Source: a virus. From it: a DNA stretch of 64,000 bases. The translations under genes were made by a program, and so were the position numbers. The notes beneath the pieces were generated by a model, which was given only the letters and a program-made list of their open reading frames with translations, had not been told where the DNA came from and searched no databases. Positions 27,931 through 60,679 of the stretch are shown one piece after another. The stretch is from positions 5,929-69,928 of the IMG/VR virus record IMGVR_UViG_2710264501_000005. The stretch is one strand, 5' to 3'. How positions within the stretch are numbered: the stretch's first letter is position 1; every line of letters starts with the position of its first letter.

Positions 27931-28124
27931 GCGAAAAAGCCGAGGCGATTGCCATAATTGAAGAGTGCCGAGAGATCCACAAACAATGGGCAGACTGGCA
28001 GGATTCCAAAGGCGACTGGAAAGCAGAGACAAAGCCCGATGATGTAGGCGGGCCGGAATATCATCGGGAATGGGTTGCGAAGTACGAAAAGGTCTTGCGA
28101 GTATTGAAGGGGAAGTCGGAATGA
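27927..28124 (+). CDS. small hypothetical protein
   Basis: Coupled to both neighbours; has a frameshifted paralog at 4762-4938. Confidence 0.65.
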   Translation: MSEKAEAIAIIEECREIHKQWADWQDSKGDWKAETKPDDVGGPEYHREWVAKYEKVLRVLKGKSE

Positions 28125-30094
28125 GTCAGCAACCGCCATGGGAATTGATGGGCTGGTCGAAAGACCACGAAAAGGAAGCCTTTGAGCAGATCGTCCGAGC
28201 GAACCTTGTAATTCCGTTTGTGATTCAAGGACAGGGCAACGATAAGCCGGGCGTGCCGATCTGGGAGTTTGCCAAGCGGGTAAACGGCGGGCAGCACTTG
28301 CCGACGTTGAAGCAAGAGATAGGCGACTGCGTGAGCTTCGGGTGTGCTCAAGCAGGCATGTACATGAGTGCTTTTGAAATCGCATGGGCAGGCCAAGAGG
28401 AAGAGTTCAAAAGATGGTATCCGCCGTATATCTACGGCATGAGCCGCGTAGCTCCTGACCTTGGCAACGGTCGGCTTGGCAACAGCGACGGATCGACGGG
28501 AGCATGGGGAGCGGGAGCGTTGCAGAAGTACGGGGTACTGTTTGCGGACGATCAGGGCGTTCCTGCTTATTCCGGTTCGGTGGCGAAACAATGGGGCCGA
28601 TCAGGACCGCCCCGCGAGTTTCAGGAGATGGCCAAGGATAACCCGGTGAAGTCTGTTGCCAAGCTATCGAGCGTCGAAGAGATCAGAGACGCATTGATTA
28701 ACTACCATCCTTGCACAATTGCGAGTATGCGAGGGTTTGAGATGCAGCCCAAGGAATACAAAGGGCGGCATGTATTTATTCCGAGTGGTTCGTGGCCCCA
28801 CCAAATGTGTATGATCCAATGGCAAGACGATCCGTTTCCTGCGGCGTATCGCCTGAACTGCTACGACAACGAAACGGATGTGTTGACCGATCAGGGGTGG
28901 TTCCGATTCTCCGAGTTACCAGAGGATGTTCGTATAGCCACCTTGAATCCCGAGACGTTAGCTGTTGAGTATCATTCGCCAATCAGCCGAGTTGCATCGC
29001 AGTACGAAGGAGAGATGATCCATTTCAAGGCCAAAGGCGTCGATCTTCTGGTAACACCGAACCACAATATGTGGATAGCAGGAAAGTGGCCGGACCACGC
29101 GAAGTTCTCCAGATGGAAGTTTGCTACAGCCGAGACGGTTCCATCAGTGTTTGCAATAAGGAAAAATGCTGCACCTGTTGTTCAAAACGACGTACAGTCT
29201 ATCGTAGTAGCCGGTCATGAGATTTCGATGGATGATTGGCTTGAGTTCCTTGGCTGGTTTTTATCAGAGGGTTGGGCGTCTTGCCGAACAAGGATGAGGG
29301 CTAGAGCAGGAAGCAAAAAGACCGGAGGACCTTACGAGGTCGAAGAGACTGACTACTACATTGGGATTGCCAACAGCAACGAAGAACACTGCGACCGGAT
29401 ACGATCCATGCTTGGCAGATTGCCGTTTAACTTCAATGAGAAAAAGTACGGCAGATGCACACAGTTTGTTTGCTACAGTCGGGACTTAGGCAAAGAATTG
29501 GTTCCCTTTGGAAAGGCACCCCAGAAGCGAGTCCCTAATTACGTATGGGAAACTTCCGCACAGCAGCAAATGTTGCTTCTCAAGACTCTTGTAGCGGGTG
29601 ACGGTCAATGCGATGAGAGCGGATATATGAGATACAGTACCGTGTCTGTTCAACTAGCCGATGACGTTCAGAGGCTCGCGTTGAATGTTGGATTGTGTGC
29701 GGACATTACGAACATGCACACCAAGGGGAAAAAGTTTGGCAAAGCCAAGTCAAACTACGACCTATTAAAAGTATCTATCCGAGGAACGCGGTTATTGTCA
29801 ACACGAGGCGGCAAACCGTGGCATCCAGAGCGGGTTCCATACAAGGATATGGTGTATTGTGTGAATGTACCGCCGCATCATATTATCTATGTTCGGCGGA
29901 ATGGAAAAGCTTGTTGGTGTGGCCAGTCTTGGGGCGAATCGGCACATGGAAGCCCGCTAAACGGCGAGCCCGCTGGAGGTGCCTGGAATCGAGCGGAGGA
30001 TTTAGAGCGTGAGCTACGGTCGGGCGATGTGGAGGTCTACGCCCTCAGTGCTTTTGAGGGATTTCCTGGTCGGGCGAATTTCTCGCCGATTTAA
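28121..30094 (+). CDS. papain-like (C1-type) cysteine peptidase precursor containing an intein
   Basis: QEIGDCVSFG (Gln/Cys), HQMCM (His), and N|SWG split by the insert. Confidence 0.8.
   Translation: MSQQPPWELMGWSKDHEKEAFEQIVRANLVIPFVIQGQGNDKPGVPIWEFAKRVNGGQHLPTLKQEIGDCVSFGCAQAGMYMSAFEIAWAGQEEEFKRWYPPYIYGMSRVAPDLGNGRLGNSDGSTGAWGAGALQKYGVLFADDQGVPAYSGSVAKQWGRSGPPREFQEMAKDNPVKSVAKLSSVEEIRDALINYHPCTIASMRGFEMQPKEYKGRHVFIPSGSWPHQMCMIQWQDDPFPAAYRLNCYDNETDVLTDQGWFRFSELPEDVRIATLNPETLAVEYHSPISRVASQYEGEMIHFKAKGVDLLVTPNHNMWIAGKWPDHAKFSRWKFATAETVPSVFAIRKNAAPVVQNDVQSIVVAGHEISMDDWLEFLGWFLSEGWASCRTRMRARAGSKKTGGPYEVEETDYYIGIANSNEEHCDRIRSMLGRLPFNFNEKKYGRCTQFVCYSRDLGKELVPFGKAPQKRVPNYVWETSAQQQMLLLKTLVAGDGQCDESGYMRYSTVSVQLADDVQRLALNVGLCADITNMHTKGKKFGKAKSNYDLLKVSIRGTRLLSTRGGKPWHPERVPYKDMVYCVNVPPHHIIYVRRNGKACWCGQSWGESAHGSPLNGEPAGGAWNRAEDLERELRSGDVEVYALSAFEGFPGRANFSPI
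28859..29926 (+). mobile_element. 356-aa intein with LAGLIDADG-type homing endonuclease, ending in Gln
   Basis: Block A CYDNETDVLT, block B VTPNHNM, endonuclease motifs FLGWFLSEG and LLKTLVAGDG, block F VYCVNVP, end WCGQ|S. Confidence 0.85.
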
Positions 30095-30108: not shown

Positions 30109-30699
30109 ATGTTTGCCGAGTGGATTGTATTGGGTTCGCTGTTGTTCTGGATTCTTTTGGGCCTAATCAGTTTGTTGCTGATTATGTTTGTCGAAGAAGA
30201 AGCCGGAGGTCCTGGGGCGTTTGTGCTTGGATTGTTTTTGGTCGCATGGCTTTTGGTTGGCGATCTACCGGAACTGATAACCACTAAGCCTTGGCATATC
30301 GCTGGGTTAGCGGTCGGGTACATCGCAATTGGGGTCGCATGGTGTTGGCCTAAGTGGCTGTTTCTTCTCAATCGTTTGCGTATTGAGTACAAGAACGAAC
30401 TAGCTAGGTTTCTAAAACGGAACAATGCCGAAGAGGTTACAGAAGAGTTGCGGGAATCATGGTCTAGTATCGTTGAGTCTTCTTGGAAATGGAACTATGG
30501 TATGTCTTTCTCGGCAGAGACAGGCAAGCTAACCCCGCCATCGTTTGAGAAGAACCGAAGCCGCTTGATTGTATGGGCTGCCTACTGGCCTTGGAGTATG
30601 TTCTGGACGCTGCTACGCGACCCGATCAAGTGGATTGTAGACTTGTGTGGCGAGTTGTTTCAAAAGACCAGCGAATGGATGTTTCGCGGGTTTGAATGA
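30109..30699 (+). CDS. multi-TM membrane protein, paralog of 26465-27118
   Basis: Three N-terminal hydrophobic helices; WAAYWPWSM. Confidence 0.7.
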   Translation: MFAEWIVLGSLLFWILLGLISLLLIMFVEEEAGGPGAFVLGLFLVAWLLVGDLPELITTKPWHIAGLAVGYIAIGVAWCWPKWLFLLNRLRIEYKNELARFLKRNNAEEVTEELRESWSSIVESSWKWNYGMSFSAETGKLTPPSFEKNRSRLIVWAAYWPWSMFWTLLRDPIKWIVDLCGELFQKTSEWMFRGFE

Positions 30700-30707
30700 G
30701 GTGGATT

Positions 30708-31319
30708 ATGTTCAACGCAACGTGGCGGATAACGGTCTTGGCAATCGTGGTTGCCGCTGTGGTTTTGTTGCACGTTGCGGGGGTGTTTGGTTCCGATTGG
30801 GCACCTCTGCGAGAAAGCGATTGGACGCCTCTTCCAACGGTCCAAACCACTAAGCAGCAATATGCGGCAGCCCTGGAAGAGTACCAACGCGGGCGGCCTA
30901 TGCTGATTTACTATACGGCCAAGTGGTGTGCTCCATGCCGAAAGGTCAAGCCGTTGCTGCCACGGCTCCGCAAGATGGGCGTATTGGTAGAGATCGACAT
31001 AGACGAAGAGAAGTGGGCCAGAAAAGGGATGGTTCAGGCGGGCATCCCCCAAGTCGTGATCTTCTACAAGTCGGGATCGGAGAACGTGCGTTTGTCTTGG
31101 GTCGGAGTGCCCGAGATAACCGACCGCTTGCAGCGTTTCGAGGCGGAGGGGATCTACTATGACGGATCAGCCAAGATTCAGACGAGTCAATCGCGGGTGT
31201 TGTGGTCTGTCCGTGAGACGTACATTGTGCCGGGTCCGGTGAGCTATCGCCCGGCATGGGAGTTTGGAGCACGTCCGGTTTCAGGTTTTCCGATGGCCGA
31301 TTGTGGGCCTAGTGGATGA
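30708..31319 (+). CDS. exported thioredoxin-fold protein
   Basis: Hydrophobic N-terminus; YYTAKWCAPCRK and GIPQ cis-Pro motif. Confidence 0.8.
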   Translation: MFNATWRITVLAIVVAAVVLLHVAGVFGSDWAPLRESDWTPLPTVQTTKQQYAAALEEYQRGRPMLIYYTAKWCAPCRKVKPLLPRLRKMGVLVEIDIDEEKWARKGMVQAGIPQVVIFYKSGSENVRLSWVGVPEITDRLQRFEAEGIYYDGSAKIQTSQSRVLWSVRETYIVPGPVSYRPAWEFGARPVSGFPMADCGPSG

Positions 31320-31354
31320 GGTTAAGGGAGGCCGCTGGTTCAGCGGTGTTGAGT

Positions 31355-31726
31355 ATGAGCGGAATAGTAAACGACAAGGCGGCATACTGGGAGGGCTACG
31401 GAGCCGCAAGGGACGGCATCCCTGACAGTGCCAATCCGCACCAGTTTGGCAGCCCGCAATACGAGTCATGGGCCAATGGGTACACCAAGGGCAAGACGGA
31501 GAAGGTAGCCGATCCGAAGCCGGTATTCTTCTCCAAGTCCTTCTGGTCGGGCGTGGTTGTTACGCTCATGTCGATCTTGAGCTACTTCCAAGACCTGATA
31601 GCAAACAATCCCGGCAAGGCGGCAGCGATTGGGACGGGGATCGGGGTACTGATGATCGTGCTCCGGTTTCTGACCGATCAGCCCGTGACGCCCAACGTGA
31701 CGATCAAAAAGTTCGAGCCGAAGTAA
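31355..31726 (+). CDS. holin-like 2-TM protein with N-terminal Rmf/CrpP-like motif
   Basis: AYWEGYGAA..G.....NPH......ESWANGY; KPVFFSKSFW followed by two TM segments. Confidence 0.5.
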   Translation: MSGIVNDKAAYWEGYGAARDGIPDSANPHQFGSPQYESWANGYTKGKTEKVADPKPVFFSKSFWSGVVVTLMSILSYFQDLIANNPGKAAAIGTGIGVLMIVLRFLTDQPVTPNVTIKKFEPK

Positions 31727-31738
31727 TCGGTTTCTCTC

Positions 31739-31747
31739 TGGTATAAT
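31739..31747 (+). promoter_or_regulatory. extended -10 promoter (TG-n-TATAAT) upstream of csf1
   Basis: TGGTATAAT ends 27 nt before the csf1 ATG. Confidence 0.6.
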
Positions 31748-31774
31748 GGTGCCGTCACACCAATCGAGGGCGAT

Positions 31775-32497
31775 ATGATGACGGCAACCACTCTATTTGC
31801 ACTAGCCAGGGGGCTCCCCGTGCCCGCTGGTAGTCACCGATGCTTTTACTGCCTAGCTCCATGTACGGAAAAGCACCCGGCCGCACATCACGTGAAAAAA
31901 TCTTTTACCTCACGCGATACCGTGGGCGGCGGCAACTACGTATGCGGTGGTTGCGTGGCGGCGATGGACGAAAAGGCCACGGTAACTTTGCCGGACGGGA
32001 CGGTAAGACACCGGCAAAAGGTTCGTTGCTATTCGTGGATTGTTACAGAAAACGAAGCGATTGCTGCAACAAAGTCTCACCGGAAGTACCTGTTTGAAAG
32101 GTGCCTTAATCCTCCGCTACCGCCGTTCGTGATCTGCATTTCAGACAGCGGGCAGAAGCATCTGCTGTATCGTTCTGCCGTATGTCACTCTCAGGACACG
32201 ATCACGATATCTTTAGAGGCGGAGCCCGTTTCCTGCAGACCAGTCGATCTAGAGAAACGTGTCTTGCTTTGCAATCGCTTGTCGGCTGCTATCGGCAAGC
32301 CCGCTCTGACGTTGCCGTTGACGGTTTCAGCACAGATACGAGTAGCAGAATATCACCAGGACGAATCGTTAGTTGCGGAGTGGCTATCCGTACAAGCCCA
32401 ACCGTTATCCAGGCTAGCCATCTGGTTCGCTCTTTCCAAAAAGGAAGCTGAAAGTGAAATCCGACCAAAAGCCGCTGTTGGGAGAATTGACTACTGA
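31775..32497 (+). CDS. csf1: type IV CRISPR-associated large subunit Csf1 (Cas8-like)
   Basis: CFYC and CGGC zinc motifs, SGQKHLLY, and position ahead of Csf2 and Csf3. Confidence 0.78.
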   Translation: MMTATTLFALARGLPVPAGSHRCFYCLAPCTEKHPAAHHVKKSFTSRDTVGGGNYVCGGCVAAMDEKATVTLPDGTVRHRQKVRCYSWIVTENEAIAATKSHRKYLFERCLNPPLPPFVICISDSGQKHLLYRSAVCHSQDTITISLEAEPVSCRPVDLEKRVLLCNRLSAAIGKPALTLPLTVSAQIRVAEYHQDESLVAEWLSVQAQPLSRLAIWFALSKKEAESEIRPKAAVGRIDY

Positions 32498-32942
32498 GGA
32501 GTTCAGGCTGCGTCTTGCCTGCCTGATTGACCCGCATGAAAAGATCGCTTCCGATCAACGTGCGATTATTAAAGATTTGGCTATCCAGTTTGCAGCCGAA
32601 TTGCCAGCATTGTTTGGGGAAACACTAGACAGAGTAACGATGTGGGACAGAATAGGCAGCGGTTTGCAATCTGCGTTCGCAAAAAGTGCGGGTGCCGATT
32701 ATGAGTTTTTTGTCAATGATGTTCTAGACCACATAAAGGCTTCGCCATCTCAAGCATCTGCGAATGAGAATATTGAAGTAGTTCTCTCTACGCTGGATGG
32801 ATGGAGTATCTCTGACCGGCAGGCTTGGCTATCGTATTTTCACACACATCTAATTCCTGTTCTGGTTCGCGCTCGATCTGCATGGGCGAACAAGAAGAAG
32901 TCAAGTAAGAAGTCAGCACACGTTTCGGAGGGCGGCAAATGA
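32454..32942 (+). CDS. cas11: alpha-helical small subunit (Cas11-like)
   Basis: About 160 aa, all-helical, between csf1 and csf2 as in type IV-B. Confidence 0.55.
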   Translation: MKSDQKPLLGELTTEEFRLRLACLIDPHEKIASDQRAIIKDLAIQFAAELPALFGETLDRVTMWDRIGSGLQSAFAKSAGADYEFFVNDVLDHIKASPSQASANENIEVVLSTLDGWSISDRQAWLSYFHTHLIPVLVRARSAWANKKKSSKKSAHVSEGGK

Positions 32943-33787
32943 ACACCTATACGATTCAGTGCATCAGCACCGCGATTAGCCCGCTTACCCACATGAGCGG
33001 CACTGCTGGCAACGTGGCGATGATCGCTCGCGAACCCGTGAATACTGACACCGGAATTGTATGGCTGCCGTTTTTGTCTGGAAACGCACTACGGCACCGA
33101 TGTATCCGAGAGCCCGGAATCATGTGGTTGATTTACGAATACGATTTAGCAGGCAAGTTATCGCTTCCGCAGTTGAACTTCCTGTTGCATGGAGGCAATC
33201 TTACGGAGTCCAATGCTCACGAAAATACGAAGCGGATTGCCGAAATGCATCGCACATGGCCACTGTTGCGTCTACTTGGGGCATCGCTTCCGAACCAGAT
33301 TTTGGCAGGCAGTCTGGATGTTTGGCGTGGCACGATGGTCTGCGAGGAAAACCGTCGATCATTGGCGATGGTTATGGACATGCCACCGGAACGACTGTGT
33401 TCGGCAGAGCGTTTTGTGGGCGAATACCAGTACACCCGCAGCGACGCCGGAAAACGAGCATTGGAGAAGAGCCCGGATGCGTTGCCTGCTACAACGAACT
33501 TGATGATATTTTCTGGCCAATGCGTCCAGCGAGGTGCCGTGTTCCATCACGGTTTTGTCGCAAAGCATGTTTCGGAAATTGAGTTAGGAGCGTTACTGTG
33601 GTCGCTGAGGCTGTGGCAATACAATGGCGGGACTATAGGTGGCCAAGCGGCACGAGGGCATGGGCGACTGAGGTGTGAGCTGATGGCAGGCACGTTTGAC
33701 CAATCCGGTATGTGCCAGCAGTATATTGAATACGCCAGAGGGGTAAAAGATGACGCAATCGCATGGCTCTACGATGCGTGGAAGTAG
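32939..33787 (+). CDS. csf2: type IV Cas7-like backbone RAMP Csf2
   Basis: TAISPLTH, PFLSGNALRH, LLHGGNL, LRLLGASL, G-rich loop IGGQAARGHGR. Confidence 0.85.
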   Translation: MNTYTIQCISTAISPLTHMSGTAGNVAMIAREPVNTDTGIVWLPFLSGNALRHRCIREPGIMWLIYEYDLAGKLSLPQLNFLLHGGNLTESNAHENTKRIAEMHRTWPLLRLLGASLPNQILAGSLDVWRGTMVCEENRRSLAMVMDMPPERLCSAERFVGEYQYTRSDAGKRALEKSPDALPATTNLMIFSGQCVQRGAVFHHGFVAKHVSEIELGALLWSLRLWQYNGGTIGGQAARGHGRLRCELMAGTFDQSGMCQQYIEYARGVKDDAIAWLYDAWK

Positions 33788-34451
33788 TTACCTGAAAATC
33801 ACTGCACACTTAGCTTCACCGATTGTTGGCGACGTACCATTCCTGGATGCGATCCTTGAATACGAAATGGCCCAACGGTTGGGCCTGGCAGGCAAGATTC
33901 AGCGTCATGAAGTGGCACCGCCTTATGGACAAGTGCATATTCCCATGCTTCGCAGGCGGATTGGCGGTATGCTTGTGCCAAGCTGTTCCTCGCCGATATG
34001 TGCTCCGCAGCACGAGGCGGTGGAGTACTTCGCAAAGCGGTTCGCAGTCGAACAGGCTGGATTATTGGATGAAAAGAAACGGCTTGTCGTGGCGATGAGT
34101 AACAGTACGTACAAGAGCTATCGTCTGCCGCTTCACATGCGGGCTTGTGATCGAGTGGTGTGGTTTGCGGCTGCCCATCGTCGGCCGGTTCTCAAACTGT
34201 TGAAGTCTGTTAATTCGCTAGGGAAAAAACGGAGTTACGGATACGGACGAGTGGCCAGATGGGAGGCCGAACCTTGGCACGAAGACTGGTCGTGGTGGTT
34301 AGTTACAGAGAAAGGGTCGGTATTGATGCGTCCGCTGCCATTATGCGACGATCTGCCCTCAGACCTAATCGGCTATCGGCGAGATTTCGGTGCTTGCCAG
34401 CCGCCGATGTGGCATCCCGACAGGTATTGTGAGAGGGTAGTACCATGCTAA
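33774..34451 (+). CDS. csf3: type IV Cas5-like RAMP Csf3
   Basis: LKITAHLASP, LDAIL, G-rich loop LGKKRSYGYGRV, C-terminal RPLP...PPMWH. Confidence 0.82.
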   Translation: MRGSSYLKITAHLASPIVGDVPFLDAILEYEMAQRLGLAGKIQRHEVAPPYGQVHIPMLRRRIGGMLVPSCSSPICAPQHEAVEYFAKRFAVEQAGLLDEKKRLVVAMSNSTYKSYRLPLHMRACDRVVWFAAAHRRPVLKLLKSVNSLGKKRSYGYGRVARWEAEPWHEDWSWWLVTEKGSVLMRPLPLCDDLPSDLIGYRRDFGACQPPMWHPDRYCERVVPC

Positions 34452-34999
34452 GCAATCTGGACATAATGACTTCGGATCTTCCATTCGGCAAGGTCGATGC
34501 AATCTACACTGATCCGCCGTGGGGATCGGCAAACCTGAAATACTGGCGGACGATGAACGGCGAGCGAGGTGCAGCAGTAGATTGGCAAGCGTTTTTAAAT
34601 CGCTTGTTCACGATATTCAAGACTCACTGCCCGTTTGGTCCCTGGTATATTGAGACTGGCACAAGGTTCGTGACGGATGTAATTGATGCATCGCCGATAT
34701 CTTGCTCAAAGCGATGGAAATGCAGATACCGAGCTGGATCAAAGTGGTTGCCGAATGTGCTGCTTTTGTTCGGCGGAGTAGAGCCAAAAGCCACACTTGC
34801 AGAGTCCAAGAGAACCGGATTGCCGCTTGTGCTGTGGGCATTAGGCGATATGCCGCCCGGATCGACGGTCCTAGATCCTTGTTGCGGACTAGGAACAACC
34901 GCCAAGGCGTGCCTTCGGTTGGGTCTGAATTTTTGCGGAAACGAACTCAATCCGAACCGGCTGGAGCGAACCCGCAAGATTTTGGAGCGAAGACAGTGA
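34445..34999 (+). CDS. amino-methyltransferase (DPPW type)
   Basis: IYTDPPWG (motif IV) and VLDPCCGLGTT (motif I). Confidence 0.8.
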   Translation: MLSNLDIMTSDLPFGKVDAIYTDPPWGSANLKYWRTMNGERGAAVDWQAFLNRLFTIFKTHCPFGPWYIETGTRFVTDVIDASPISCSKRWKCRYRAGSKWLPNVLLLFGGVEPKATLAESKRTGLPLVLWALGDMPPGSTVLDPCCGLGTTAKACLRLGLNFCGNELNPNRLERTRKILERRQ

Positions 35000-35901
35000 T
35001 TATCTTAGGCACACCGTTCAACGCCAAGGTGAAACGAATTCAGGACCACGTTGCCGATACGGGAGCAAAGCGGGTCGTGGTCTTGTCGCCTAGCAAATTC
35101 CAAATGGACATGCCAGAGGAATGGGATGTTGTCGAGTGGTCAGATATCATTATGTACCGCACATTCTACCGCCTCTTGCAAGAGATCGACCCTGCGACTC
35201 TCCTGGTCATTAATGAGTGTCTTAGGGTGAGCAATCGGAGTGACCTGACGTACAACTGTATCAGGCACTTTGCCGCACAGACCAGAAATGTTTTGGTGTT
35301 CCAATATCTGCCGATCATCGACGATCTTGCAGATTTCATGACGCTGGTTGACTTCGTAACAGGCAGCAGGTTTAAGGGTCTTCCGTGGTCCAGTGAGGTT
35401 GCTAAAGCCGTCACCATCACAGGCAGGGAGGTGCCCGTTCAATTTCGAGAGATCCGCGTAGAAGCAAGCCAGAAGACGCGAGCGACCTATCAGCGTGAAC
35501 GTGATAGAGCGTTCGAGCAACTGGGTGCGAAAGACCCGCACACAATCCCAAGGAACCTCTATCAGATTACAGGCAGGGATCGATTGGCTGCGACAACTGA
35601 TCGGGATCTGGTAGGGCGAAACAACCGATTTAAGATAAGCCGGATGCAGCTTTTTCGTGACAGGTCTTTCCGCACTCCGAGTACGATTTTCGAGGTGTCT
35701 CATTCGATCAGAGATGTTGTGGATTTCTTGAGTTTGTCTGAACAAGAGGACATTCCGTTTATCGCTACGGATGTAAAAGTAGACCAGTGGTACTACCAAC
35801 AAACGCGAGCATGGGAGGGTCGACTTCGTGAAGCCTACGCAGCGATACGATCAGCGAACCGTCCTGGAAGCTTCTATCCAGAGGATATCGCTGCTGTTTG
35901 A
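34996..35901 (+). CDS. degenerate SF2/SNF2-like helicase-fold protein
   Basis: LLVINECLR in place of DExx; no Walker A; GTG start overlaps the upstream stop. Confidence 0.5.
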   Translation: MIILGTPFNAKVKRIQDHVADTGAKRVVVLSPSKFQMDMPEEWDVVEWSDIIMYRTFYRLLQEIDPATLLVINECLRVSNRSDLTYNCIRHFAAQTRNVLVFQYLPIIDDLADFMTLVDFVTGSRFKGLPWSSEVAKAVTITGREVPVQFREIRVEASQKTRATYQRERDRAFEQLGAKDPHTIPRNLYQITGRDRLAATTDRDLVGRNNRFKISRMQLFRDRSFRTPSTIFEVSHSIRDVVDFLSLSEQEDIPFIATDVKVDQWYYQQTRAWEGRLREAYAAIRSANRPGSFYPEDIAAV

Positions 35902-36961
35902 CATGTATGACAACCTGATTGTGTCTGTCAGCGGCGGCAAGGACAGTACTGTACTAGCCGCGTTAGCTTTGGAAGAGGCGTCACGGCGGCGACGGAAGAT
36001 CGGGCTGTTTTTTCTGGACGAAGAGGTTGTCTATCAGGCGACGGTCGATCAGGTCGAATACCTCATGTCGATCTTCCCGGAATGGACTAATCGCTTGTGG
36101 CTTCAAGTCGAGTTCAACCTGACCAACGCCACTTCTGCCACGGAGACTCAGTTACTTTGTTGGGAGGAGGGTAAGCATAAGCAGTGGATGCGATCGAAGG
36201 GCAAAAACAATATTGTTGCACCACCTTGGGGACGCGGCAGTGAAGTAACGATCCGGGATAAAAGAAAAGGGTTTGGTTTTTACGATGTGATAGACAACTT
36301 CGAGGCTTGTTACAGCGATACAGCATTTTTAATAGGGTTGCGAGCAACGGAAGGCCCCAATCGGTTCAGGGCTGTGTCCAAAAATCCGGTCGTCAAAAAC
36401 GGCGTATCGATCTATTACGGCACGTCGAAACCGCATGGAAATGCGGCGTTTTATCCGATCTATGATTGGAACTTCCATGACGTTTGGAAGTTCATTTATG
36501 ACCGCAAGCTTCGATACAACAAAATCTATGACATGCAATTCCGCAAGGGATTGCCGCTGGCACAGATCCGATGTTCGTCACTGATTCACGAGCGGTCTTT
36601 TAAGAGCCTTTGCGAACTCCCGGAGTTTGAGCCGAAGACGTATGCAAAGCTTCTCAAGCGGGCAAAGGGAATTGGACTGGCCCAAGAGACTGGCAAAAAC
36701 GCCAAGATGTTCGCGGCAAGGAAGCTTCCGAAAAACTATACGTCGTGGAGAAGATACAGAGATGTACTATTGGCGACTCATCCAGATCCGCTTGGAAAAG
36801 ATGTGCTTGCAAAGCGGTTCTCGAAGCAACTAGACAACGAATATGTAGCCAGACAGCAGTGTCGGCAGTTGATTCTTAACGACTACGAAAACAATGTCGG
36901 CATAGACAACCGCCCGGACCCACGCGAAGAACTTATAGAGTACTACAGGAGTGTGCTGTGA
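35828..36961 (+). CDS. ibrA: PAPS-reductase-like PP-loop protein, IbrA/DUF3440-like
   Basis: VSVSGGKDS, FFLDEE, IGLRATEGPNR, FYPIYDWNFHDVW. Confidence 0.78.
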   Translation: MKPTQRYDQRTVLEASIQRISLLFDMYDNLIVSVSGGKDSTVLAALALEEASRRRRKIGLFFLDEEVVYQATVDQVEYLMSIFPEWTNRLWLQVEFNLTNATSATETQLLCWEEGKHKQWMRSKGKNNIVAPPWGRGSEVTIRDKRKGFGFYDVIDNFEACYSDTAFLIGLRATEGPNRFRAVSKNPVVKNGVSIYYGTSKPHGNAAFYPIYDWNFHDVWKFIYDRKLRYNKIYDMQFRKGLPLAQIRCSSLIHERSFKSLCELPEFEPKTYAKLLKRAKGIGLAQETGKNAKMFAARKLPKNYTSWRRYRDVLLATHPDPLGKDVLAKRFSKQLDNEYVARQQCRQLILNDYENNVGIDNRPDPREELIEYYRSVL

Positions 36962-37524
36962 TTGATACACTAGATGAATTAAGGAATCAGATTGGCTTGC
37001 GAAGTGTGTTCGTCGGTCAAATCAAGATCCCGTGCATGAACGTTATGTTAGTAAATCGGGATTTAGTTGTTGCCAATACGTACAACCCCAATTCCGTTCC
37101 TCCCGACAGGCTGGAGTTGCTTCGCGTTTCGATTCTTTCCAACGGATTTTGTTTTCCGGTTGTCACGATATGGGATGACGACCTCGAAAAGCTTGTCATT
37201 GTCGATGGGTTTCATCGTTATCTATTAACAGGGCCAGACTGGTTGGACATGCGGCACGTGCCTGTAGTAGTACTGGAACACGGCCCGAGCCAGCGTATGG
37301 CTGCAACTGTTCAGTTCAACAAGGCAAGAGGTGTTCATCAGATCGATCTAGACGCCGATATCGTGCGTGCACTGATAGAACAGGGCATCGACGAAAGGGA
37401 GGTAGCAGAGCAGCTTGGCATGGACTTGGATGCGGTCCATCGTTACAAGCAAGTCACGGGAATTGTTGAGCTATTCAAAGGTGTGCAGTACTCCGCAGCT
37501 TGGGAGATTGCCGATGCTGATTGA
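36958..37524 (+). CDS. ibrB: ParB/Srx-domain protein, IbrB-like
   Basis: ANTYNPNSVPP, SILSNGFCFPVV, IVDGFHRY, TVQFNKARGVH. Confidence 0.8.
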   Translation: MIDTLDELRNQIGLRSVFVGQIKIPCMNVMLVNRDLVVANTYNPNSVPPDRLELLRVSILSNGFCFPVVTIWDDDLEKLVIVDGFHRYLLTGPDWLDMRHVPVVVLEHGPSQRMAATVQFNKARGVHQIDLDADIVRALIEQGIDEREVAEQLGMDLDAVHRYKQVTGIVELFKGVQYSAAWEIADAD

Positions 37525-38278
37525 GTCTCCAAGACACACACCAGCAGACCTCAACTTGTGGGTTGACCACGAAGAGGCCGATTTACAACACAGCATGTCA
37601 CGGCGGGAGCAGGAAGCAAAGGAGGCGATTGTACAGTTTACAGACCAGTTGCCGTGTTATGCGGGCGTTTCGTGGGGCAAGGATTCTGTTGTGATAGCCC
37701 ATCTCTTGCGACGCTACGCTCCGGATGTTTCGTTAATGCACTTGCGGCCTACCAACCACAATCCAGACTGTGATGCGGTGCGAGACATCTATTTTGATTT
37801 GTTTCCCGGCCAAGCATATGAAGAGGTTTTCGTGTCTTATGATGGCTTAGATCGGACGATGCTTGATCGTGGCAGTTTAGACCGGCTCACAGACCAGCGG
37901 TGGTATGCAGCGATACGAGAATACGGAAAGGAGTTCCGCCAAAGGCACATCTTGGGTATACGTGCAGAAGAATCGACCGGCCGGCGATTTCGTGTAATGC
38001 GTTGGGGGTTGGCATCTCCTAATGCCTGTGCTCCTATCGGTAGGTGGAGCACTGCGGATGTGTTTGCCTATCTCGCGTGTCACGGCTTGCCGGTCCACCC
38101 GGCGTATGCGATGCTTGGGGGCGGCAGGTGGCGACGCGACCGAATCCGGGTGGCTGAGATTGGTGACACTCACGGCACGGGGTCCGGCCGTGAAGAGTGG
38201 GAGCGGGAGTATTACGGCGACGTACTGAGGAGGTTAGAGTGTCGATCAAGGATCGTGTCAAGGAATTGCGGCGAGTGA
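37514..38278 (+). CDS. CysH-like PP-loop protein (type IV-B-associated type)
   Basis: VSWGKDSVV, LGIRAEESTGR, PIGRWSTADVFAYL. Confidence 0.8.
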   Translation: MLIESPRHTPADLNLWVDHEEADLQHSMSRREQEAKEAIVQFTDQLPCYAGVSWGKDSVVIAHLLRRYAPDVSLMHLRPTNHNPDCDAVRDIYFDLFPGQAYEEVFVSYDGLDRTMLDRGSLDRLTDQRWYAAIREYGKEFRQRHILGIRAEESTGRRFRVMRWGLASPNACAPIGRWSTADVFAYLACHGLPVHPAYAMLGGGRWRRDRIRVAEIGDTHGTGSGREEWEREYYGDVLRRLECRSRIVSRNCGE

Positions 38279-38835
38279 AGGCTTCGGAATTGGTGCCACA
38301 CCCCGGCAACTACCGGAGGCATCCAGAGATACAAAAACACGCCCTAGCTGGCGTTTTGGCGGAACTTGGCTACTGTTCCGCCTTGGTAGCCAGGGAGCTT
38401 CCAGACGGCCGTTTGGGGCTGCTAGATGGCCATTTACGGGCTGACCTGACGCCAGACGAAGAGGTGCCGGTTGTGGTGGTGGACTTGACGGAGGAAGAGG
38501 CCAAAAAGTTCCTTGTCACGTTCGACCCTTTGACCAGCCTAGCGGAAACCGATCAGGAGATATTGGACGGGCTGCTAGAGGGCTTGGGGGGCGGTCCAGA
38601 GTTCCAGGTGAGTTTGACGGAGTTGTGGCCGGATGCTTTCAAGGAATCGATCCCAGAGCCGCCAGCGGAGCCTTTCGAGGGCGACAAGATCGACTGGTCG
38701 AGGCCGTTGATGCTGACTGCCGAGCAGCGTGCGATAGTAGATCAGGCGATTGCCAAGATTCGGACGATGGAGAATGATGCAGGAATAGCAGAGGGCCGCT
38801 GTATTGAGCTTGCGTTAGCCGACTGGCTGAGCTAG
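38239..38835 (+). CDS. ParB/Srx-domain protein
   Basis: LVPHPGNYRRH, LLDGHLRA, EVPVVVVDL. Confidence 0.78.
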   Translation: MSIKDRVKELRRVKASELVPHPGNYRRHPEIQKHALAGVLAELGYCSALVARELPDGRLGLLDGHLRADLTPDEEVPVVVVDLTEEEAKKFLVTFDPLTSLAETDQEILDGLLEGLGGGPEFQVSLTELWPDAFKESIPEPPAEPFEGDKIDWSRPLMLTAEQRAIVDQAIAKIRTMENDAGIAEGRCIELALADWLS

Positions 38836-39187: not shown

Positions 39188-39487
39188 TTACCCGTTTTGC
39201 TGGCCGTTGATCCCTAGCAGTTTGAGGCTTTCGGAGTCGTTTCCGTGCAGTTCTCGGATACGTTCAACGCACTCGTCAAAGCCCTTTGTGAACTGGTAAT
39301 AGGCACGCTGTCCCGATTCGATCTTGGAGAAAATTTCGGAGAGGTGCTTGCGGATACGTTCCGATTCGTCGGCTATGGCATCGTCGATGATTTCATCGGG
39401 TGTGGCGTCGATCAGAACGAAGTCGTCTACCACGCTAGACCAGACGGCGTAGAGTCCGTTTGGCTGTTTGACGATCTGCCTACCCAT
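39188..39487 (-). CDS. hypothetical protein
   Basis: MGRQIVKQPNGLYAVWSSVVD. Confidence 0.6.
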   Translation of the reverse strand: MGRQIVKQPNGLYAVWSSVVDDFVLIDATPDEIIDDAIADESERIRKHLSEIFSKIESGQRAYYQFTKGFDECVERIRELHGNDSESLKLLGINGQQNG

Positions 39488-40694
39488 TGGCTTTCTCCCT
39501 TGCTTCTTTTTCTTTCAGGGCTTCGACGGCGGCCTTGAGGATATCAAGTTCTTTTGCAGACACGGCGGAACTGGCGGGGTACAGACGAAGATTGGCTTCT
39601 AACGACGCGAACAGCTTTTCCGCTTCTGCCGATGTGGGCTTCGGGGGCTTGGTGGCATCGCGGATTACAGTGGGGGCGTCTGCGAGGTTATCGACCACAC
39701 AGCAAAATCTGGTAAGCCCTTCGTCATGGTCGATGTTGGCGATATACCACGAACCATCGTCGCGGCGGGCAAACTCCCATTCGTGCTTGCCGGCGTCGGC
39801 GGCTTCCTGTAGTGCCTCCGCCAGTGTGTCCTCATGGTGCGAGCGTAGCCGGATGATTCGAGTAGTGAACCAGTTGCCTAGTTCGCTGACGTTTACCGGG
39901 TCTGCAACCCATTCGGCAACCCACTCGGCTGCAAGTTCTTTTGCTGTTTTGCGGTCGATCCTGTCTCTGGCTTTCTGATCTGACAGCAGTTGGGCCAATC
40001 GGTTGCCTTGTGACACGTATTGATTCGTGACTTCGGCAAGTTCCCGTTGCAGTGCCGTTACCTTTTCGATCAGCAGGCCGACAACTTCGGCGGCTTGCAA
40101 CGTGAATTGTTCGTCGAATTCATCGAACACAGCCTCGCCTAAATCGGTGGTTTTGTATCCTTTCCAGTCTTGTGTAACCTGCTTGGCGAGTTCCTTGAAC
40201 CATTCTGGTAGTTCTTTCACGGGTTTACCCTTTCTGGTTTTTTTCTCGTTCGCCTCAGCGATGGCCGCTCGAACAACACTCAAAACGGCATCGTCGAAAT
40301 CACAACGACCGTGATTCGTCCAAGTGGACTCAATCTGCCGCAGAGCCAGAAGATCCCTTTCCTGCTCGAAGTTACCACGCTCAATGCTTCCATGCGTGGT
40401 CATGTGTACGTCCAGAGCGAGCGTCAACACAGAGCGATCATCCAATATGTCAGCAACCCATTTTTCCCGGTACATATCGTCTTTCCGTTCAGGGAGGTTG
40501 TGCAGCACACAGAAAGGGCAGGCGTTTCCGAACCCGTCGCCGCCTTTCGGCGTTAGTCTGTCAGCCTCTTGCCAACCAGCTAGCCAGTTCTTCCAGAGCA
40601 TGGAGCCTGCTTTGTAGGGGTTGCCCTCGACGGGCACCCCGTCGTCGCGTCGGGCTTCGTAGCCTGTTTGGAATCCCGGTGGTTTGTCGCTCAT
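39480..40694 (-). CDS. mosaic coiled-coil protein with N-terminal Rmf/CrpP-like motif
   Basis: GYEA....P...NPY.......WLAGWQEA followed by helical segments. Confidence 0.55.
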   Translation of the reverse strand: MSDKPPGFQTGYEARRDDGVPVEGNPYKAGSMLWKNWLAGWQEADRLTPKGGDGFGNACPFCVLHNLPERKDDMYREKWVADILDDRSVLTLALDVHMTTHGSIERGNFEQERDLLALRQIESTWTNHGRCDFDDAVLSVVRAAIAEANEKKTRKGKPVKELPEWFKELAKQVTQDWKGYKTTDLGEAVFDEFDEQFTLQAAEVVGLLIEKVTALQRELAEVTNQYVSQGNRLAQLLSDQKARDRIDRKTAKELAAEWVAEWVADPVNVSELGNWFTTRIIRLRSHHEDTLAEALQEAADAGKHEWEFARRDDGSWYIANIDHDEGLTRFCCVVDNLADAPTVIRDATKPPKPTSAEAEKLFASLEANLRLYPASSAVSAKELDILKAAVEALKEKEAREKANG

Positions 40695-41330
40695 GCTACG
40701 CCTTCTACTTGTTCGATGGCTTCCCTTAGTTGCTTGGCTAGTGGGCTGTTTTCCCACTGGTCATTCTCGCAGTCTTCCAGGGCGGCTTTGCAGGCGGCGA
40801 GCAATACATCAAGGTTGCTATCCTGCACCTGCCACCAGAGGAGGCAATCTAAACAGGGGCAGTCGCGGCGTTTGTGAGGTTTGGACTTCATGCCACCTTC
40901 TTTTTTTGTCCGTGTCATGCCTACTCTCCTGTCTTGATGTACTGGTCACGCCTAGCTTCTAGAAACAGCCCGGCGTCACAAGAGTTTTTGAACCGGGCAA
41001 TCGCCTTGGGTTCTTTTTCCGCATCGCAGATGACATAGGGATATGTTTCGTGCAGTTTGCCAGTGTAGCAGTAGAACCGCAGCCGGGCGGTCTTTTGTCG
41101 TTCGGTGGCTCTGACTCTTAGGGTCATGGTTCGTCGTCCCTTTCAAAAACATACGTAACCACCCAAAGCGGCTTGCGAAACCACGTCAATGGATTCCACC
41201 AGCGTGGAACGCGAACCACTCTGCCATTGATGAGTTTCAGATGGTATCCGCCCAACGTAAGACCTTCGTGCAATTCGTTTAAGCAGTCGGCTTCCTTGAG
41301 GTGCTGAAATACTAGATCATCGTCGCTCAT
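40691..41330 (-). CDS. three small hypothetical ORFs (40691-40918, 40921-41127, 41124-41330)
   Basis: Co-directional and closely coupled. Confidence 0.5.
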
Positions 41331-60608: not shown

Positions 60609-60679
60609 GGGCGTTAGCGGCAAGGTGCCGCGATGGGCTTTCAATCCCATTATGGCGGGTTCGATTCCCGCAACGCCCC
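60609..60679 (+). tRNA. atypical tRNA, 8-nt anticodon loop CUUUCAAU (Glu UUC, or UCA)
   Basis: Acceptor GGGCGTT/AACGCCC, D-stem GCGG/CCGC, anticodon stem ATGGG/CCCAT, T-arm GCGGG-TTCGATT-CCCGC; no encoded CCA. Confidence 0.6.

What the first reader, a model, noticed from the sequence alone, without database searches (positions are those of the whole stretch)
31739..38835. Phage-encoded, array-less type IV-B CRISPR-Cas effector in one operon with six accessory enzymes
Seen: ten overlapping or abutting genes behind their own extended -10 promoter: csf1, cas11-like, csf2, csf3, DPPW methyltransferase, degenerate helicase, IbrA-like, IbrB-like, CysH-like and ParB-like. I found no cas1, cas2, cas6, dinG or CRISPR array anywhere in the window. 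Known: type IV-B loci lie on mobile elements, lack arrays, carry a cysH-like gene and have no established function; the Mycobacterium type IV-B complex was reported to assemble on heterogeneous RNA. Inference: here the Cas scaffold looks repurposed as an RNA-bound platform that directs nucleic-acid modification or counter-defence. The accessory set is larger than the usual single cysH.
Basis: partly seen in the sequence, partly recalled or inferred. Interest (0 to 1): 0.92.

Follow-up and report, generated by a model that had tools for sequence, protein, structure and literature searches.

The report
Phage type IV-B Cas plus IbrAB cassette
A tailed phage from subsurface rock carries a real CRISPR-less type IV-B Cas complex fused into one operon with a common but uncharacterised phage gene cassette (dead SNF2 motor, IbrA, IbrB, methylase), and in related phages the Cas genes take the place of that cassette's live motor, which gives a testable clue to what two unexplained systems do.

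Summary
Window 31775-38835 (+) has ten overlapping or abutting genes: csf1, cas11, csf2, csf3, a DPPW methyltransferase, a catalytically dead SNF2-like protein, IbrA (PP-loop plus DUF3440), IbrB (ParB/Srx), a CasCysH-like PP-loop protein and a second ParB/Srx protein. All four Cas assignments are strong (PADLOC E 1e-26 to 1e-78; the Csf2 model matches solved type IV Csf2). The 77.9-kb tailed-phage genome, 97% complete, has no CRISPR array, cas1, cas2, cas6 or dinG.

The operon is a composite. A canonical type IV-B module (csf1-cas11-csf2-csf3-cysH, seen alone in about 35 related loci) has a stand-alone phage cassette inserted between csf3 and cysH. That cassette is methylase, dead SNF2, IbrA and IbrB. 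The combination recurs, often interleaved, in at least five Csf2 lineages.

Stand-alone cassettes carry a live SNF2 ATPase just upstream (19-21 of 23). Csf-linked ones never do (0 of 10 that can be scored). I infer that the Csf complex is an alternative nucleic-acid-engaging front end for a DNA- or RNA-modifying enzyme set. That coupling is not shown.

Phage type IV-B is already published. This scan has also noted similar operons and the IbrAB cassette on other DNA. I class it as a new variant of a known kind.

The parts
31739..31747 (+). Extended -10-like motif TGGTATAAT in the 48-nt gap before csf1. A candidate promoter, unverified.
   Evidence: Read directly. It is the only TGNTATAAT in the window, but the chance expectation is 0.53. 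The scan found no -35. It is not conserved in relatives.
31775..32497 (+). csf1, the type IV Cas8-like large subunit (240 aa). It has CxxC...CxxC zinc-ribbon cysteines.
   Evidence: PADLOC typeIV_Cas8, 2.3e-60. NCBIfam cas8u_csf1, 3.6e-13, below the curated cut-off. Sequence.
32454..32942 (+). cas11, the type IV small subunit (about 151-162 aa). The true start may be 32478 or 32487.
   Evidence: PADLOC typeIV_Cas11, 1.4e-26. Homologue alignments begin at residue 7-12.
32939..33787 (+). csf2, the type IV Cas7 backbone subunit (282 aa).
   Evidence: PADLOC typeIV_Cas7, 1.3e-78. Profile against the PDB: Cas7c 11fs_C at 1.2e-10 and Csf2 7jhy_e at 4.4e-5. The AlphaFold model (pLDDT 84.8) best matches type IV-A Csf2 7xg1_F, E 8e-13, TM 0.69.
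33750..34451 (+). csf3, the type IV Cas5 subunit (233 aa).
   Evidence: PADLOC typeIV_Cas5, 8.3e-33. phrog_34599, 1.7e-30.
34445..34999 (+). Small beta-class amino-methyltransferase (184 aa). Motif IV is DPPW at residues 23-26 and motif I is CCGLGTT at 146-152.
   Evidence: Pfam N6_N4_Mtase, 33.5 bits against a 26.7 cut-off, matching the C-terminal part only. DPPW is kept in 30 of 37 cassette homologues, and D.C.G.G is kept in at least 90%.
34996..35901 (+). HelL, a miniature SNF2-fold protein (301 aa). It has no Walker A, and motif II reads NECL. It is a catalytically dead SNF2 paralogue.
   Evidence: Alignment A2 fixes the start at the MI.IG motif and shows the conserved motifs. The model has pLDDT 91.7. 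PDB matches are INO80, ISWI and SsoRad54 cores, E 8e-9, TMq about 0.6. AFDB match, Atlas match.
35903..36961 (+). IbrA-like PP-loop ATP pyrophosphatase with a C-terminal DUF3440 domain (352 aa). The PP-loop motif is SGGKDS.
   Evidence: Pfam PAPS_reduct 53.1 bits and DUF3440 30 bits, both above their cut-offs. phrog_2302, 6.6e-76.
36958..37524 (+). IbrB-like ParB/Srx-fold protein (188 aa) with a DGFHR motif.
   Evidence: phrog_2159 ParB-like, 2.2e-46. NCBIfam parB_part, 0.004. It always follows IbrA in 40 or more loci.
37514..38278 (+). CasCysH-like PP-loop protein (254 aa) with an SWGKDS motif. It has no conserved C-terminal catalytic cysteine motif.
   Evidence: Pfam PAPS_reduct, 36.5 bits. 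Alignment A4 shows invariant S-x-G-K-D-S, G, R, E and R residues. It is the usual fifth gene of related type IV-B loci.
38275..38835 (+). ParB2, a second ParB/Srx N-terminal-domain protein (186 aa) with an LLDGHLR motif. It is the last gene before convergent minus-strand genes.
   Evidence: phrog_498 at 7e-14 and phrog_620 at 8.9e-12. PADLOC ParB-MTase N-terminus, 2.5e-5. Homologues follow the operon in L004 and L006. No pairwise similarity to IbrB.

Best explanation
The ten-gene operon is a composite of two mobile modules of a tailed phage.

Module 1 is a genuine type IV-B effector with no array: Csf1, Cas11, Csf2 and Csf3, plus its PP-loop partner CasCysH.

Module 2 is inserted exactly between csf3 and cysH. 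It is the widespread phage cassette of DPPW methylase, dead SNF2-like protein, IbrA (PP-loop plus DUF3440) and IbrB (ParB/Srx). A further ParB/Srx gene closes the operon.

In cassettes without Cas genes, a live SNF2 ATPase sits directly upstream of the dead copy. In Cas-linked cassettes that motor is missing and the Csf genes stand there instead.

I therefore propose the following. The Csf ribonucleoprotein, loaded with non-CRISPR RNA, is not an adaptive immune effector here. It is an alternative front end that binds nucleic acid and opens strands. It presents DNA (less likely RNA) to the adenylating PP-loop enzymes (IbrA, CasCysH), their ParB/Srx partners and the methylase. These enzymes modify the nucleic acid covalently. 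The most likely target is phage DNA made before packaging, and the likely benefit is protection from host restriction or other defences.

Shown here: the gene identities, the absence of an array, the composite structure, the recurrence, and the exclusivity between Csf genes and the SNF2 motor. Inferred: physical coupling, the substrate, the chemistry and the benefit.
For: Cas identities.

No array and no adaptation or processing genes in the 97%-complete genome.

The element is a tailed phage, with TerL, portal and head genes.

The canonical five-gene type IV-B module is seen in about 35 of the roughly 42 distinct loci recovered through Csf2 (L002-L044, L090-L093).

The cassette (methylase, HelL, IbrA, IbrB) is conserved in essentially all 44 loci found through IbrA or HelL. 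10 of the 38 loci found through IbrA have Csf genes next to it.

Gene orders differ and interleave. Examples are L048 (Csf2-Csf1-CysH-MTase-HelL-IbrA-IbrB-Csf3), L053, L030 and L081.

The Csf2 tree needs at least 5-6 gains or losses of the linkage. The IbrA tree needs at least 4.

Close relatives share the window's order. L090 (75% Csf2 identity) keeps nine of the ten genes, lacking only ParB2, with a second csf3 copy inserted. L004 (61%) keeps all ten with extra genes.

A live SNF2 ATPase lies upstream of HelL in 19-21 of 23 distinct stand-alone cassettes and in 0 of 10 informative Csf-linked ones. Fisher p is 3e-7 to 5e-6, or 1e-3 if only 5 independent lineages are counted.

The complete 106-kb Csf-linked phage G001 has no bona fide SNF2 anywhere.

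Other cargo in the same operon slot are also modification-type enzymes. L006 has a radical SAM protein and a P-loop ATPase-GNAT. L004 has a GNAT.

Catalytic motifs are conserved in the methylase and in CysH.
Against: There is no expression, binding or modification data. No RNA run holds the locus.

Most cassettes lack Csf genes, and most type IV-B loci lack the cassette. L092 lacks it at 75% Csf2 identity. So neither module needs the other.

The window's phage does encode an SNF2-methylase fusion 12 kb upstream, so a motor is not absent from this genome.

Sampling was seeded with this window's proteins, and the loci are related to each other, so the counts are not independent.

The solved type IV-B complex binds heterogeneous RNA with no known target (PMC7937560).

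The only reported phenotype of IbrA/IbrB is activation of prophage genes in E. coli. That rests on my own knowledge of Sandt et al. 2002 and on how PMC4490671 names them.
Confidence: 0.45

Rival explanations
1. Co-location without coupling. The type IV-B module and the IbrAB cassette are independent accessory modules. They tend to land in the same permissive region between the replication and packaging genes. Tight packing in phage genomes makes them look like one operon.
For: About 30 of 44 cassette loci have no Csf genes. About 35 of 42 Csf2-seeded loci have no cassette. L092 lacks the cassette at 75% Csf2 identity. Both modules sit near RusA or the terminase in relatives. The genes flanking the window operon are not conserved.
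Against: The cassette lies inside the Cas operon, between csf genes, in several different orders (L048, L053, L057, L030, L081). The junctions are translationally coupled. The live SNF2 is missing specifically from Csf-linked cassettes, and a neutral hot spot would not predict that.
Confidence: 0.25
2. RNA-directed counter-defence. The Csf complex captures host small RNAs, such as crRNAs or other guide RNAs. CasCysH and IbrA then adenylate or otherwise modify those RNAs and disable RNA-guided host immunity.
For: The solved type IV-B complex assembles on heterogeneous RNA (PMC7937560). An RNA-inactivating or anti-CRISPR role has been proposed for plasmid and virus type IV-B systems (PMC7038947; bioRxiv 10.1101/2023.08.02.551345). 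CasCysH has been proposed to AMPylate substrates (PMC13676074, PMC8175902). The PP-loop motif is invariant.
Against: The partners added here belong to DNA-directed families: the SNF2 fold, ParB, and a beta-class DNA methylase family. Pinilla-Redondo et al. themselves judged a multi-subunit anti-CRISPR unlikely (PMC7038947). The host is unknown, and so is whether it has CRISPR.
Confidence: 0.15
3. Gene regulation. IbrA/IbrB act as co-activators and the Csf complex acts as a nuclease-free repressor or anti-terminator in the style of CRISPR interference. Together they would time late-gene expression.
For: [quoted passage not shown] Type IV-A works by CRISPRi-like repression without a nuclease (PMC13676074 introduction). 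The module sits just before the packaging genes in relatives.
Against: There is no array or identifiable guide. The PP-loop and methylase catalytic motifs are conserved, which points to chemistry rather than binding alone. In this phage the operon is followed by convergent genes, not late genes.
Confidence: 0.1
4. A decaying remnant. The Cas genes are a non-functional leftover carried along with an active cassette.
For: There is no array, no Cas6 and no nuclease.
Against: All reading frames are intact. More than 410 Csf2 homologues exist, and an alignment of 34 of them has 61% mean column identity and 53 invariant columns. The five-gene order is conserved across phage lineages whose relatives appear in MAGs of many phyla.
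Confidence: 0.03

Closest known systems
Subtype IV-B CRISPR-Cas (Csf1-Cas11-Csf2-Csf3 plus CasCysH), for example Mycobacterium sp. JS623, PDB 7JHY (PMC7937560, PMC7038947, PMC8175902)
   Same: Same five gene families. No array, Cas6, DinG or adaptation genes. Carried on a mobile element. The PP-loop partner lacks the CysH catalytic cysteine motif.
   Different: It is on a tailed phage rather than an actinobacterial plasmid. It is very divergent: the NCBIfam Csf models score far below their cut-offs. Four extra genes separate csf3 from cysH, and a ParB/Srx gene follows.
Virus-borne type IV-B loci already in print: 'Fuxiviridae' of Bathyarchaeia (PMC10848311) and a Methanoperedens virus (bioRxiv 10.1101/2023.08.02.551345)
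   Same: A type IV-B effector plus a cysH-like gene inside a virus genome, with a proposed counter-defence role.
   Different: Those loci carry only cysH, and Fuxivirus also has a mini-array. Neither paper reports an IbrA/IbrB, SNF2-like, methylase or ParB partner.
IbrA/IbrB of the E. coli ECOR-9 island, and phage pairs of 'PAPS reductase' plus 'ParB-like' genes, for example Flavobacterium phage FCV-1 gp09 and gp08 (NC_041845)
   Same: PAPS_reduct plus DUF3440 next to a ParB-fold partner. 222 isolated phage records hold an IbrA homologue.
   Different: Here the pair comes with a dead SNF2 and a DPPW methylase, and it is embedded in a Cas operon. The chemistry is unknown in every case.
Type IV-A (CasDinG) and IV-D (RecD) systems
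   Same: A Csf complex works together with a superfamily 1 or 2 helicase-fold partner encoded in the same operon (PMC7038947, PMC13676074).
   Different: The helicase-fold partner here is SNF2-like and lacks the ATPase motifs. There is no array or Cas6.
DndC of DNA phosphorothioation, and BrxP of type 4 BREX
   Same: These are PAPS-reductase-family PP-loop proteins used in DNA-modification-based systems. IbrA hits DndC weakly (4e-5), and IbrA and CysH hit BrxP weakly (about 1e-4).
   Different: The matches are partial and weak. No DndA, DndD or DndE partners or BREX partners are among the ten genes. It is not a member of either system.

Membership tests
Type IV-B CRISPR-Cas | Csf1 (Cas8-like, zinc-ribbon) large subunit | tested here: met
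   PADLOC typeIV_Cas8, 2.3e-60, full length. NCBIfam cas8u_csf1, 3.6e-13 but 49.7 bits against a 140-bit cut-off. CxxC pairs are in the sequence.
Type IV-B CRISPR-Cas | Cas11 small subunit encoded between csf1 and csf2 | tested here: met
   PADLOC typeIV_Cas11, 1.4e-26.
Type IV-B CRISPR-Cas | Csf2 (Cas7) backbone and Csf3 (Cas5) | tested here: met
   Csf2 at 1.3e-78 and Csf3 at 8.3e-33. Csf2 profile hits in the PDB: 11fs_C and 7jhy_e. Fold match to type IV Csf2, TM 0.65-0.71.
Type IV-B CRISPR-Cas | Associated cysH-like PP-loop gene | tested here: met
   PF01507, 36.5 bits against a 22.5 cut-off. The gene is orthologous (35-64% identity) to the gene that directly follows csf3 in related loci.
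Type IV-B CRISPR-Cas | No CRISPR array, Cas6/Csf5, DinG or adaptation module | tested here: met
   Whole 77.9-kb genome searched. The k-mer array scan and TRF found nothing. Cas1, Cas2, Cas6, Csy4 and Csf4 models found nothing real. No dedicated Csf5 model was run.
Type IV-B CRISPR-Cas | Csf2 falls in the IV-B clade of a reference Cas7 tree | not tested
   No reference set of subtype-labelled Csf2 sequences was available. The profile scores IV-C Cas7c (1.2e-10) better than IV-B 7jhy (4.4e-5), but Csf1 stands in place of a Cas10-like subunit, which argues against IV-C.
Type IV-B CRISPR-Cas | Assembles into a ribonucleoprotein filament on RNA | not testable with these tools
   This needs purification and RNA sequencing.
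IbrA/IbrB pair | PAPS_reduct PP-loop domain plus DUF3440 in one protein, with an adjacent ParB-fold partner | tested here: met
   PF01507 at 53.1 bits and PF11922 at 30 bits, both above their cut-offs. IbrB matches phrog_2159 at 2.2e-46. The adjacency holds in 40 or more loci.
IbrA/IbrB pair | Co-activation of prophage genes | not testable with these tools
   This phenotype is known only from E. coli.
SNF2-family ATPase | Two-lobe RecA-like SNF2 core fold | tested here: met
   Model pLDDT 91.7. PDB matches to INO80, ISWI and SsoRad54, E down to 8e-9. AFDB SNF2 clusters.
SNF2-family ATPase | Walker A (GxGKT) and motif II (DExH) for ATP hydrolysis | tested here: not met
   None of the 24 aligned family members has a Walker A. 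Motif II reads NECL, or DGCM/DELM in some. It therefore has the SNF2 fold but is not a working SNF2 ATPase.
Beta-class N6-adenine/N4-cytosine DNA methyltransferase (Pfam N6_N4_Mtase) | Motif IV (D/S-P-P-Y/F/W) before motif I (FxGxG-like) in that order | tested here: met
   DPPW at residues 23-26 and CCGLGTT at 146-152. The motifs are conserved in 37 homologues. The Pfam score is above the cut-off but covers only the last 38 residues.
Beta-class N6-adenine/N4-cytosine DNA methyltransferase (Pfam N6_N4_Mtase) | Methylates DNA at a defined site | not testable with these tools
   This needs SMRT or nanopore methylome data or an in vitro assay.
Dnd DNA phosphorothioation | DndC together with DndA/IscS, DndD and DndE | tested here: not met
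   Only a weak partial DndC match for IbrA (4e-5, about 65 residues). None of the ten genes matches DndA, DndD or DndE in PADLOC, Pfam or NCBIfam.

The most novel reading that the evidence does not exclude
The array-less Csf complex loads the phage's own transcripts. It uses them to form R-loops on the phage's own DNA, and so aims the IbrA/IbrB/CasCysH/methylase chemistry at self DNA. This would be an RNA-guided, array-free system that marks self DNA epigenetically. The Cas scaffold would do the job that a live SNF2 motor does in ordinary IbrAB cassettes.
Probability: 0.12. Interest if true: 0.95.

Novelty: new variant of a known kind. Interest (0 to 1): 0.7.

Why it matters
Type IV-B is the one CRISPR-Cas subtype with no known function. 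A 2026 paper still calls its biology unclear (PMC13676074). The IbrA/IbrB family, which has K-12 paralogues according to earlier scan notes, also has no known chemistry.

Finding the two fused into one operon, repeatedly and with genes interleaved, suggests that they act on the same substrate. The Cas genes also stand where a live SNF2 motor otherwise sits.

This yields a concrete experiment: swap the Csf genes and the SNF2 motor and read out nucleic-acid modification. The experiment can be run in laboratory strains.

If the inference holds, type IV-B would be a Cas complex recruited as the substrate-handling part of a modification machine rather than as an immune effector.

Tried and rejected
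Searches that found nothing:
- Megablast of the operon against 50,697 phage records.
- tblastn of Csf2 against the same records.
- tblastn of HelL against the same records.
- The first single-protein scan of viral contigs. The profile-based scan then worked.

Pfam gave no hit for Csf1, Csf2 or Csf3, because that copy lacks PF27781 and PF27782. The NCBIfam hits were all below their cut-offs. PADLOC and structure settled the identities.

Other dead ends:
- Sequencing-run search found DNA holders only (subsurface and rock metagenomes) and no RNA. Co-transcription could not be tested, and I did not lay reads.
- The extended -10 is not conserved upstream of csf1 in 47 relatives.
- The weak Csf4/DinG hit (11 bits) is a generic helicase motif in the SNF2-methylase fusion, not a DinG.
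- I considered stop-codon recoding because ARAGORN gave the tRNA at 60609-60679 a four-base anticodon. Code 4 lengthens frames on both strands without pattern, and the loop reads as CTTTCAA, so it is probably an ordinary tRNA-Glu(UUC).
- The glacial 'IbrA/B plus CRISPR' phage of PMC4490671 turned out to carry a type I-E system with arrays and is unrelated.
- Literature searches linking type IV-B with IbrA, ParB, DUF3440 or methylases found nothing relevant.

Full report
**What is there.** The window is bases 5929-69928 of a 77,889-bp IMG/VR virus record judged 97% complete. The record encodes a large terminase, a portal protein, head-morphogenesis proteins and a small terminase. It is therefore a tailed phage. 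Its DNA occurs in subsurface metagenomes and, in a separate study, in a rock metagenome.

From 31775 to 38835 on the + strand, ten reading frames overlap or abut at every junction. Convergent minus-strand genes follow. Upstream lie genes in the same direction and a 48-nt gap. That gap holds TGGTATAAT at 31739-31747. It is the only extended -10 consensus in the window, but a single match is no more than chance. The two-hexamer scan did not flag it. It is absent upstream of csf1 in 47 related loci. The promoter is plausible, not shown.

**Gene identities.** PADLOC models match the first four proteins over their full length. Csf1 scores 2.3e-60, Cas11 1.4e-26, Csf2 1.3e-78 and Csf3 8.3e-33. NCBIfam's Csf1, Csf2 and Csf3 models are each the top hit, but they score far below their curated cut-offs, so the proteins are divergent.

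A 34-sequence Csf2 profile finds Cas7c of type IV-C (11fs, 1.2e-10) and Csf2 of the Mycobacterium type IV-B complex (7jhy, 4.4e-5) among solved structures. An AlphaFold model (pLDDT 84.8) best matches type IV-A Csf2 chains (E 8e-13, TM 0.65-0.71), and 7jhy also appears.

The other six genes:
- Gene 5 is a 184-aa beta-class amino-methyltransferase. It has DPPW near the N-terminus and CCGLGTT near the C-terminus, and both motifs are conserved in its family.
- Gene 6, which I call HelL, starts at the GTG at 34996, as shown by the conserved MI.IG N-terminus. Its model (pLDDT 91.7) has the two-lobe SNF2 core fold, matching INO80, ISWI and SsoRad54. The family has no Walker A, and motif II reads NECL.
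- Gene 7 is IbrA-like. PAPS_reduct and DUF3440 both score above their Pfam cut-offs, and the PP-loop is SGGKDS.
- Gene 8 is IbrB-like with a ParB/Srx fold.
- Gene 9 is the CasCysH-like PP-loop protein. An SxGKDS motif is invariant, and there is no conserved C-terminal cysteine motif.
- Gene 10, which I call ParB2, is a second ParB N-terminal-domain protein. It shows no pairwise similarity to IbrB.

IbrA and CysH are only distant paralogues, 24% identical over 112 residues.

**No array and no missing Cas genes.** A k-mer scan of the whole genome for spaced repeats found nothing, and neither did Tandem Repeats Finder. Rfam found only a tRNA. Models for Cas1, Cas2, Cas6, Cas6f and Csf4 found nothing real.

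**The locus is a composite.** Csf2 has more than 410 homologues in metagenomes. I fetched 25 viral contigs, 14 contigs binned into MAGs and 7 further contigs. I mapped the ten window proteins onto them with tblastn and with local iterative HMM searches.

Nearly all of these loci carry csf1-cas11-csf2-csf3-cysH, the canonical type IV-B order. It usually sits between the replication genes (RusA) and the terminase. Only six distinct lineages of about 42 add IbrA and IbrB.

Conversely, 38 viral contigs found through IbrA and 6 found through HelL all carry HelL-IbrA-IbrB. The small methylase sits either before HelL or after IbrB. So methylase, dead SNF2, IbrA and IbrB form a self-standing phage cassette. 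Isolated phages carry the simpler ParB-plus-PAPS-reductase pair: 222 records, for example Flavobacterium phage FCV-1 gp08 and gp09.

In the window the cassette sits exactly between csf3 and cysH. Two relatives share that order:
- L090 (75% Csf2 identity) keeps nine of the ten genes, lacking only ParB2. It also carries a tandem second csf3 copy.
- L004 (61% identity) keeps all ten, with extra genes interspersed.

L092 (75% identity) has csf3 directly followed by cysH. The genes flanking the window operon are not shared with any relative.

**Evidence that the two modules are linked.** There are three lines.

1. The combination recurs in distant lineages and in different, interleaved orders. Examples:
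   - L048: Csf2-Csf1-CysH-MTase-HelL-IbrA-IbrB-Csf3.
   - L053 and L057: Csf1-Csf2-CysH-HelL-IbrA-IbrB...MTase...Csf3.
   - L072: Csf1-Csf2-Csf3-CysH-MTase-HelL-IbrA-IbrB.
   - L030: Csf1-Csf2-IbrB-IbrA-CysH-Csf3.
   - L025: Csf3-IbrA-IbrB-CysH.

   A Csf2 tree needs at least 5-6 changes of the linkage. An IbrA tree needs at least 4.

2. Other cargo in the same operon are also modification-type enzymes. L006, the nearest IMG/VR relative at 68%, has a radical SAM protein between csf2 and csf3, then ParB2 and a P-loop-ATPase-GNAT protein, and no cysH. L004 has a GNAT after csf3.

3. This line is new in this analysis. Stand-alone cassettes have a bona fide SNF2 ATPase directly upstream of the dead copy. 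It has Walker A GTGKT, and Pfam finds SNF2-rel_dom plus Helicase_C. It is present in 19-21 of 23 distinct loci. None of the 10 informative Csf-linked cassettes has one within 8-10 kb. Fisher p is 3e-7 to 5e-6, or 1e-3 if the Csf-linked loci count as only five lineages.

   A complete 106-kb Csf-linked phage has no SNF2 above the Pfam cut-off anywhere in its genome. The window's phage does have an SNF2-methylase fusion, but it lies 12 kb upstream and not in the operon.

**Interpretation.** SNF2 proteins engage and distort duplex DNA. Csf complexes of type IV-A bind dsDNA through an RNA guide and work with a helicase (PMC13676074, PMC7038947). The pattern suggests that the Csf complex and the live SNF2 motor are alternative front ends. 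Each would hand nucleic acid to the same back end: two adenylating PP-loop enzymes, ParB/Srx partners and an N6-adenine-type methylase.

I commit to covalent modification of nucleic acid, most likely phage DNA, as the function. My confidence is about 0.45. Only the anatomy and the comparative pattern are shown. Binding, substrate and chemistry are inferred.

The rivals are independent modules sharing a hot spot (0.25), RNA capture and inactivation as counter-defence (0.15), regulation of phage genes (0.10) and decay (0.03).

An earlier check within this scan on a similar claim (type IV-B paired with DpdA) marked down the 'guided' version. The reasons were that there is no array or Cas6 and that the solved complex binds heterogeneous RNA. 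I therefore keep the guided, self-marking version as the bold case at 0.12.

**Comparison with what is known.** Array-less type IV-B with cysH on mobile elements is established (PMC7038947, PMC8175902, PMC7937560). Virus-borne examples are in print (PMC10848311; bioRxiv 10.1101/2023.08.02.551345). Their function is still called unclear in 2026 (PMC13676074).

In the searchable literature I found no report of IbrA/IbrB, an SNF2-like protein, a methylase or ParB as type IV-B partners. Subscription journals are not covered by that search.

Within this scan, first-stage notes describe similar interleaved operons in two other genomes. Fourteen notes describe the SNF2, dead-SNF2, IbrA, IbrB and methylase cassette. 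So the thing has been seen before on other DNA.

**Verdict.** This is a new variant of a known kind. Interest is 0.7, because it links two unexplained systems and suggests a direct experiment.

Noticed in passing
window 22849-25152 (+): A 767-aa fusion of a live SNF2 helicase (Walker A and DExH present; SNF2-rel_dom plus Helicase_C) with an N6_N4 DNA methylase. It lies 12 kb upstream of the operon. It could serve as the motor that the operon's dead SNF2 lacks.
   Followed up: partly
window 31316-31726 (+) and 39480-40757 (-): Two separate ORFs flanking the operon each give a weak match to ribosome modulation factor (Pfam RMF, 23-25 bits against a 27.9 cut-off). One of them is the gene directly upstream of csf1. 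The matches are unexplained and may be chance.
   Followed up: no
window 28070-30094 (+): A 674-aa ORF with a LAGLIDADG_3 domain and short matches to thymidylate synthase and ribonucleotide reductase PHROGs. It is probably a nucleotide-metabolism gene containing an intein. A thioredoxin-domain gene follows at 30696-31319.
   Followed up: no
window 60609-60679 (+): ARAGORN gives this tRNA an odd four-base anticodon (ttca). The loop reads CTTTCAA, so it is probably tRNA-Glu(UUC). A test with TGA=W gave no sign of recoding.
   Followed up: partly
L006:1219-2547 and L006:3783-4937: In the nearest IMG/VR relative (Csf2 68%), a radical SAM protein sits between csf2 and csf3. A P-loop ATPase fused to a GNAT acetyltransferase follows ParB2. 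No cysH is present. This is a different enzyme cargo on the same Cas scaffold.
   Followed up: partly
L090:10855-12200: The closest full-operon relative (Csf2 75%) has two tandem csf3 paralogues, 34% and 73% identical to the window's Csf3.
   Followed up: no
L047, L048, L053, L057, L072 (Csf2 ORFs of 410-430 aa): In the divergent Csf-linked clades no separate cas11 is detected and the Csf2 ORF is about 130 aa longer. This suggests a Cas11-Csf2 fusion.
   Followed up: no
L051:7923-11186: One 137-kb viral contig carries two tandem IbrA-IbrB pairs after the dead SNF2. The second pair is only about 40% identical to the first.
   Followed up: no
L049:3482-6441: In one stand-alone cassette the place of the live SNF2 is taken by two homing-endonuclease-type genes (LAGLIDADG_2, and RRXRR with DUF7487). 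This may mark a mobile-element insertion.
   Followed up: no
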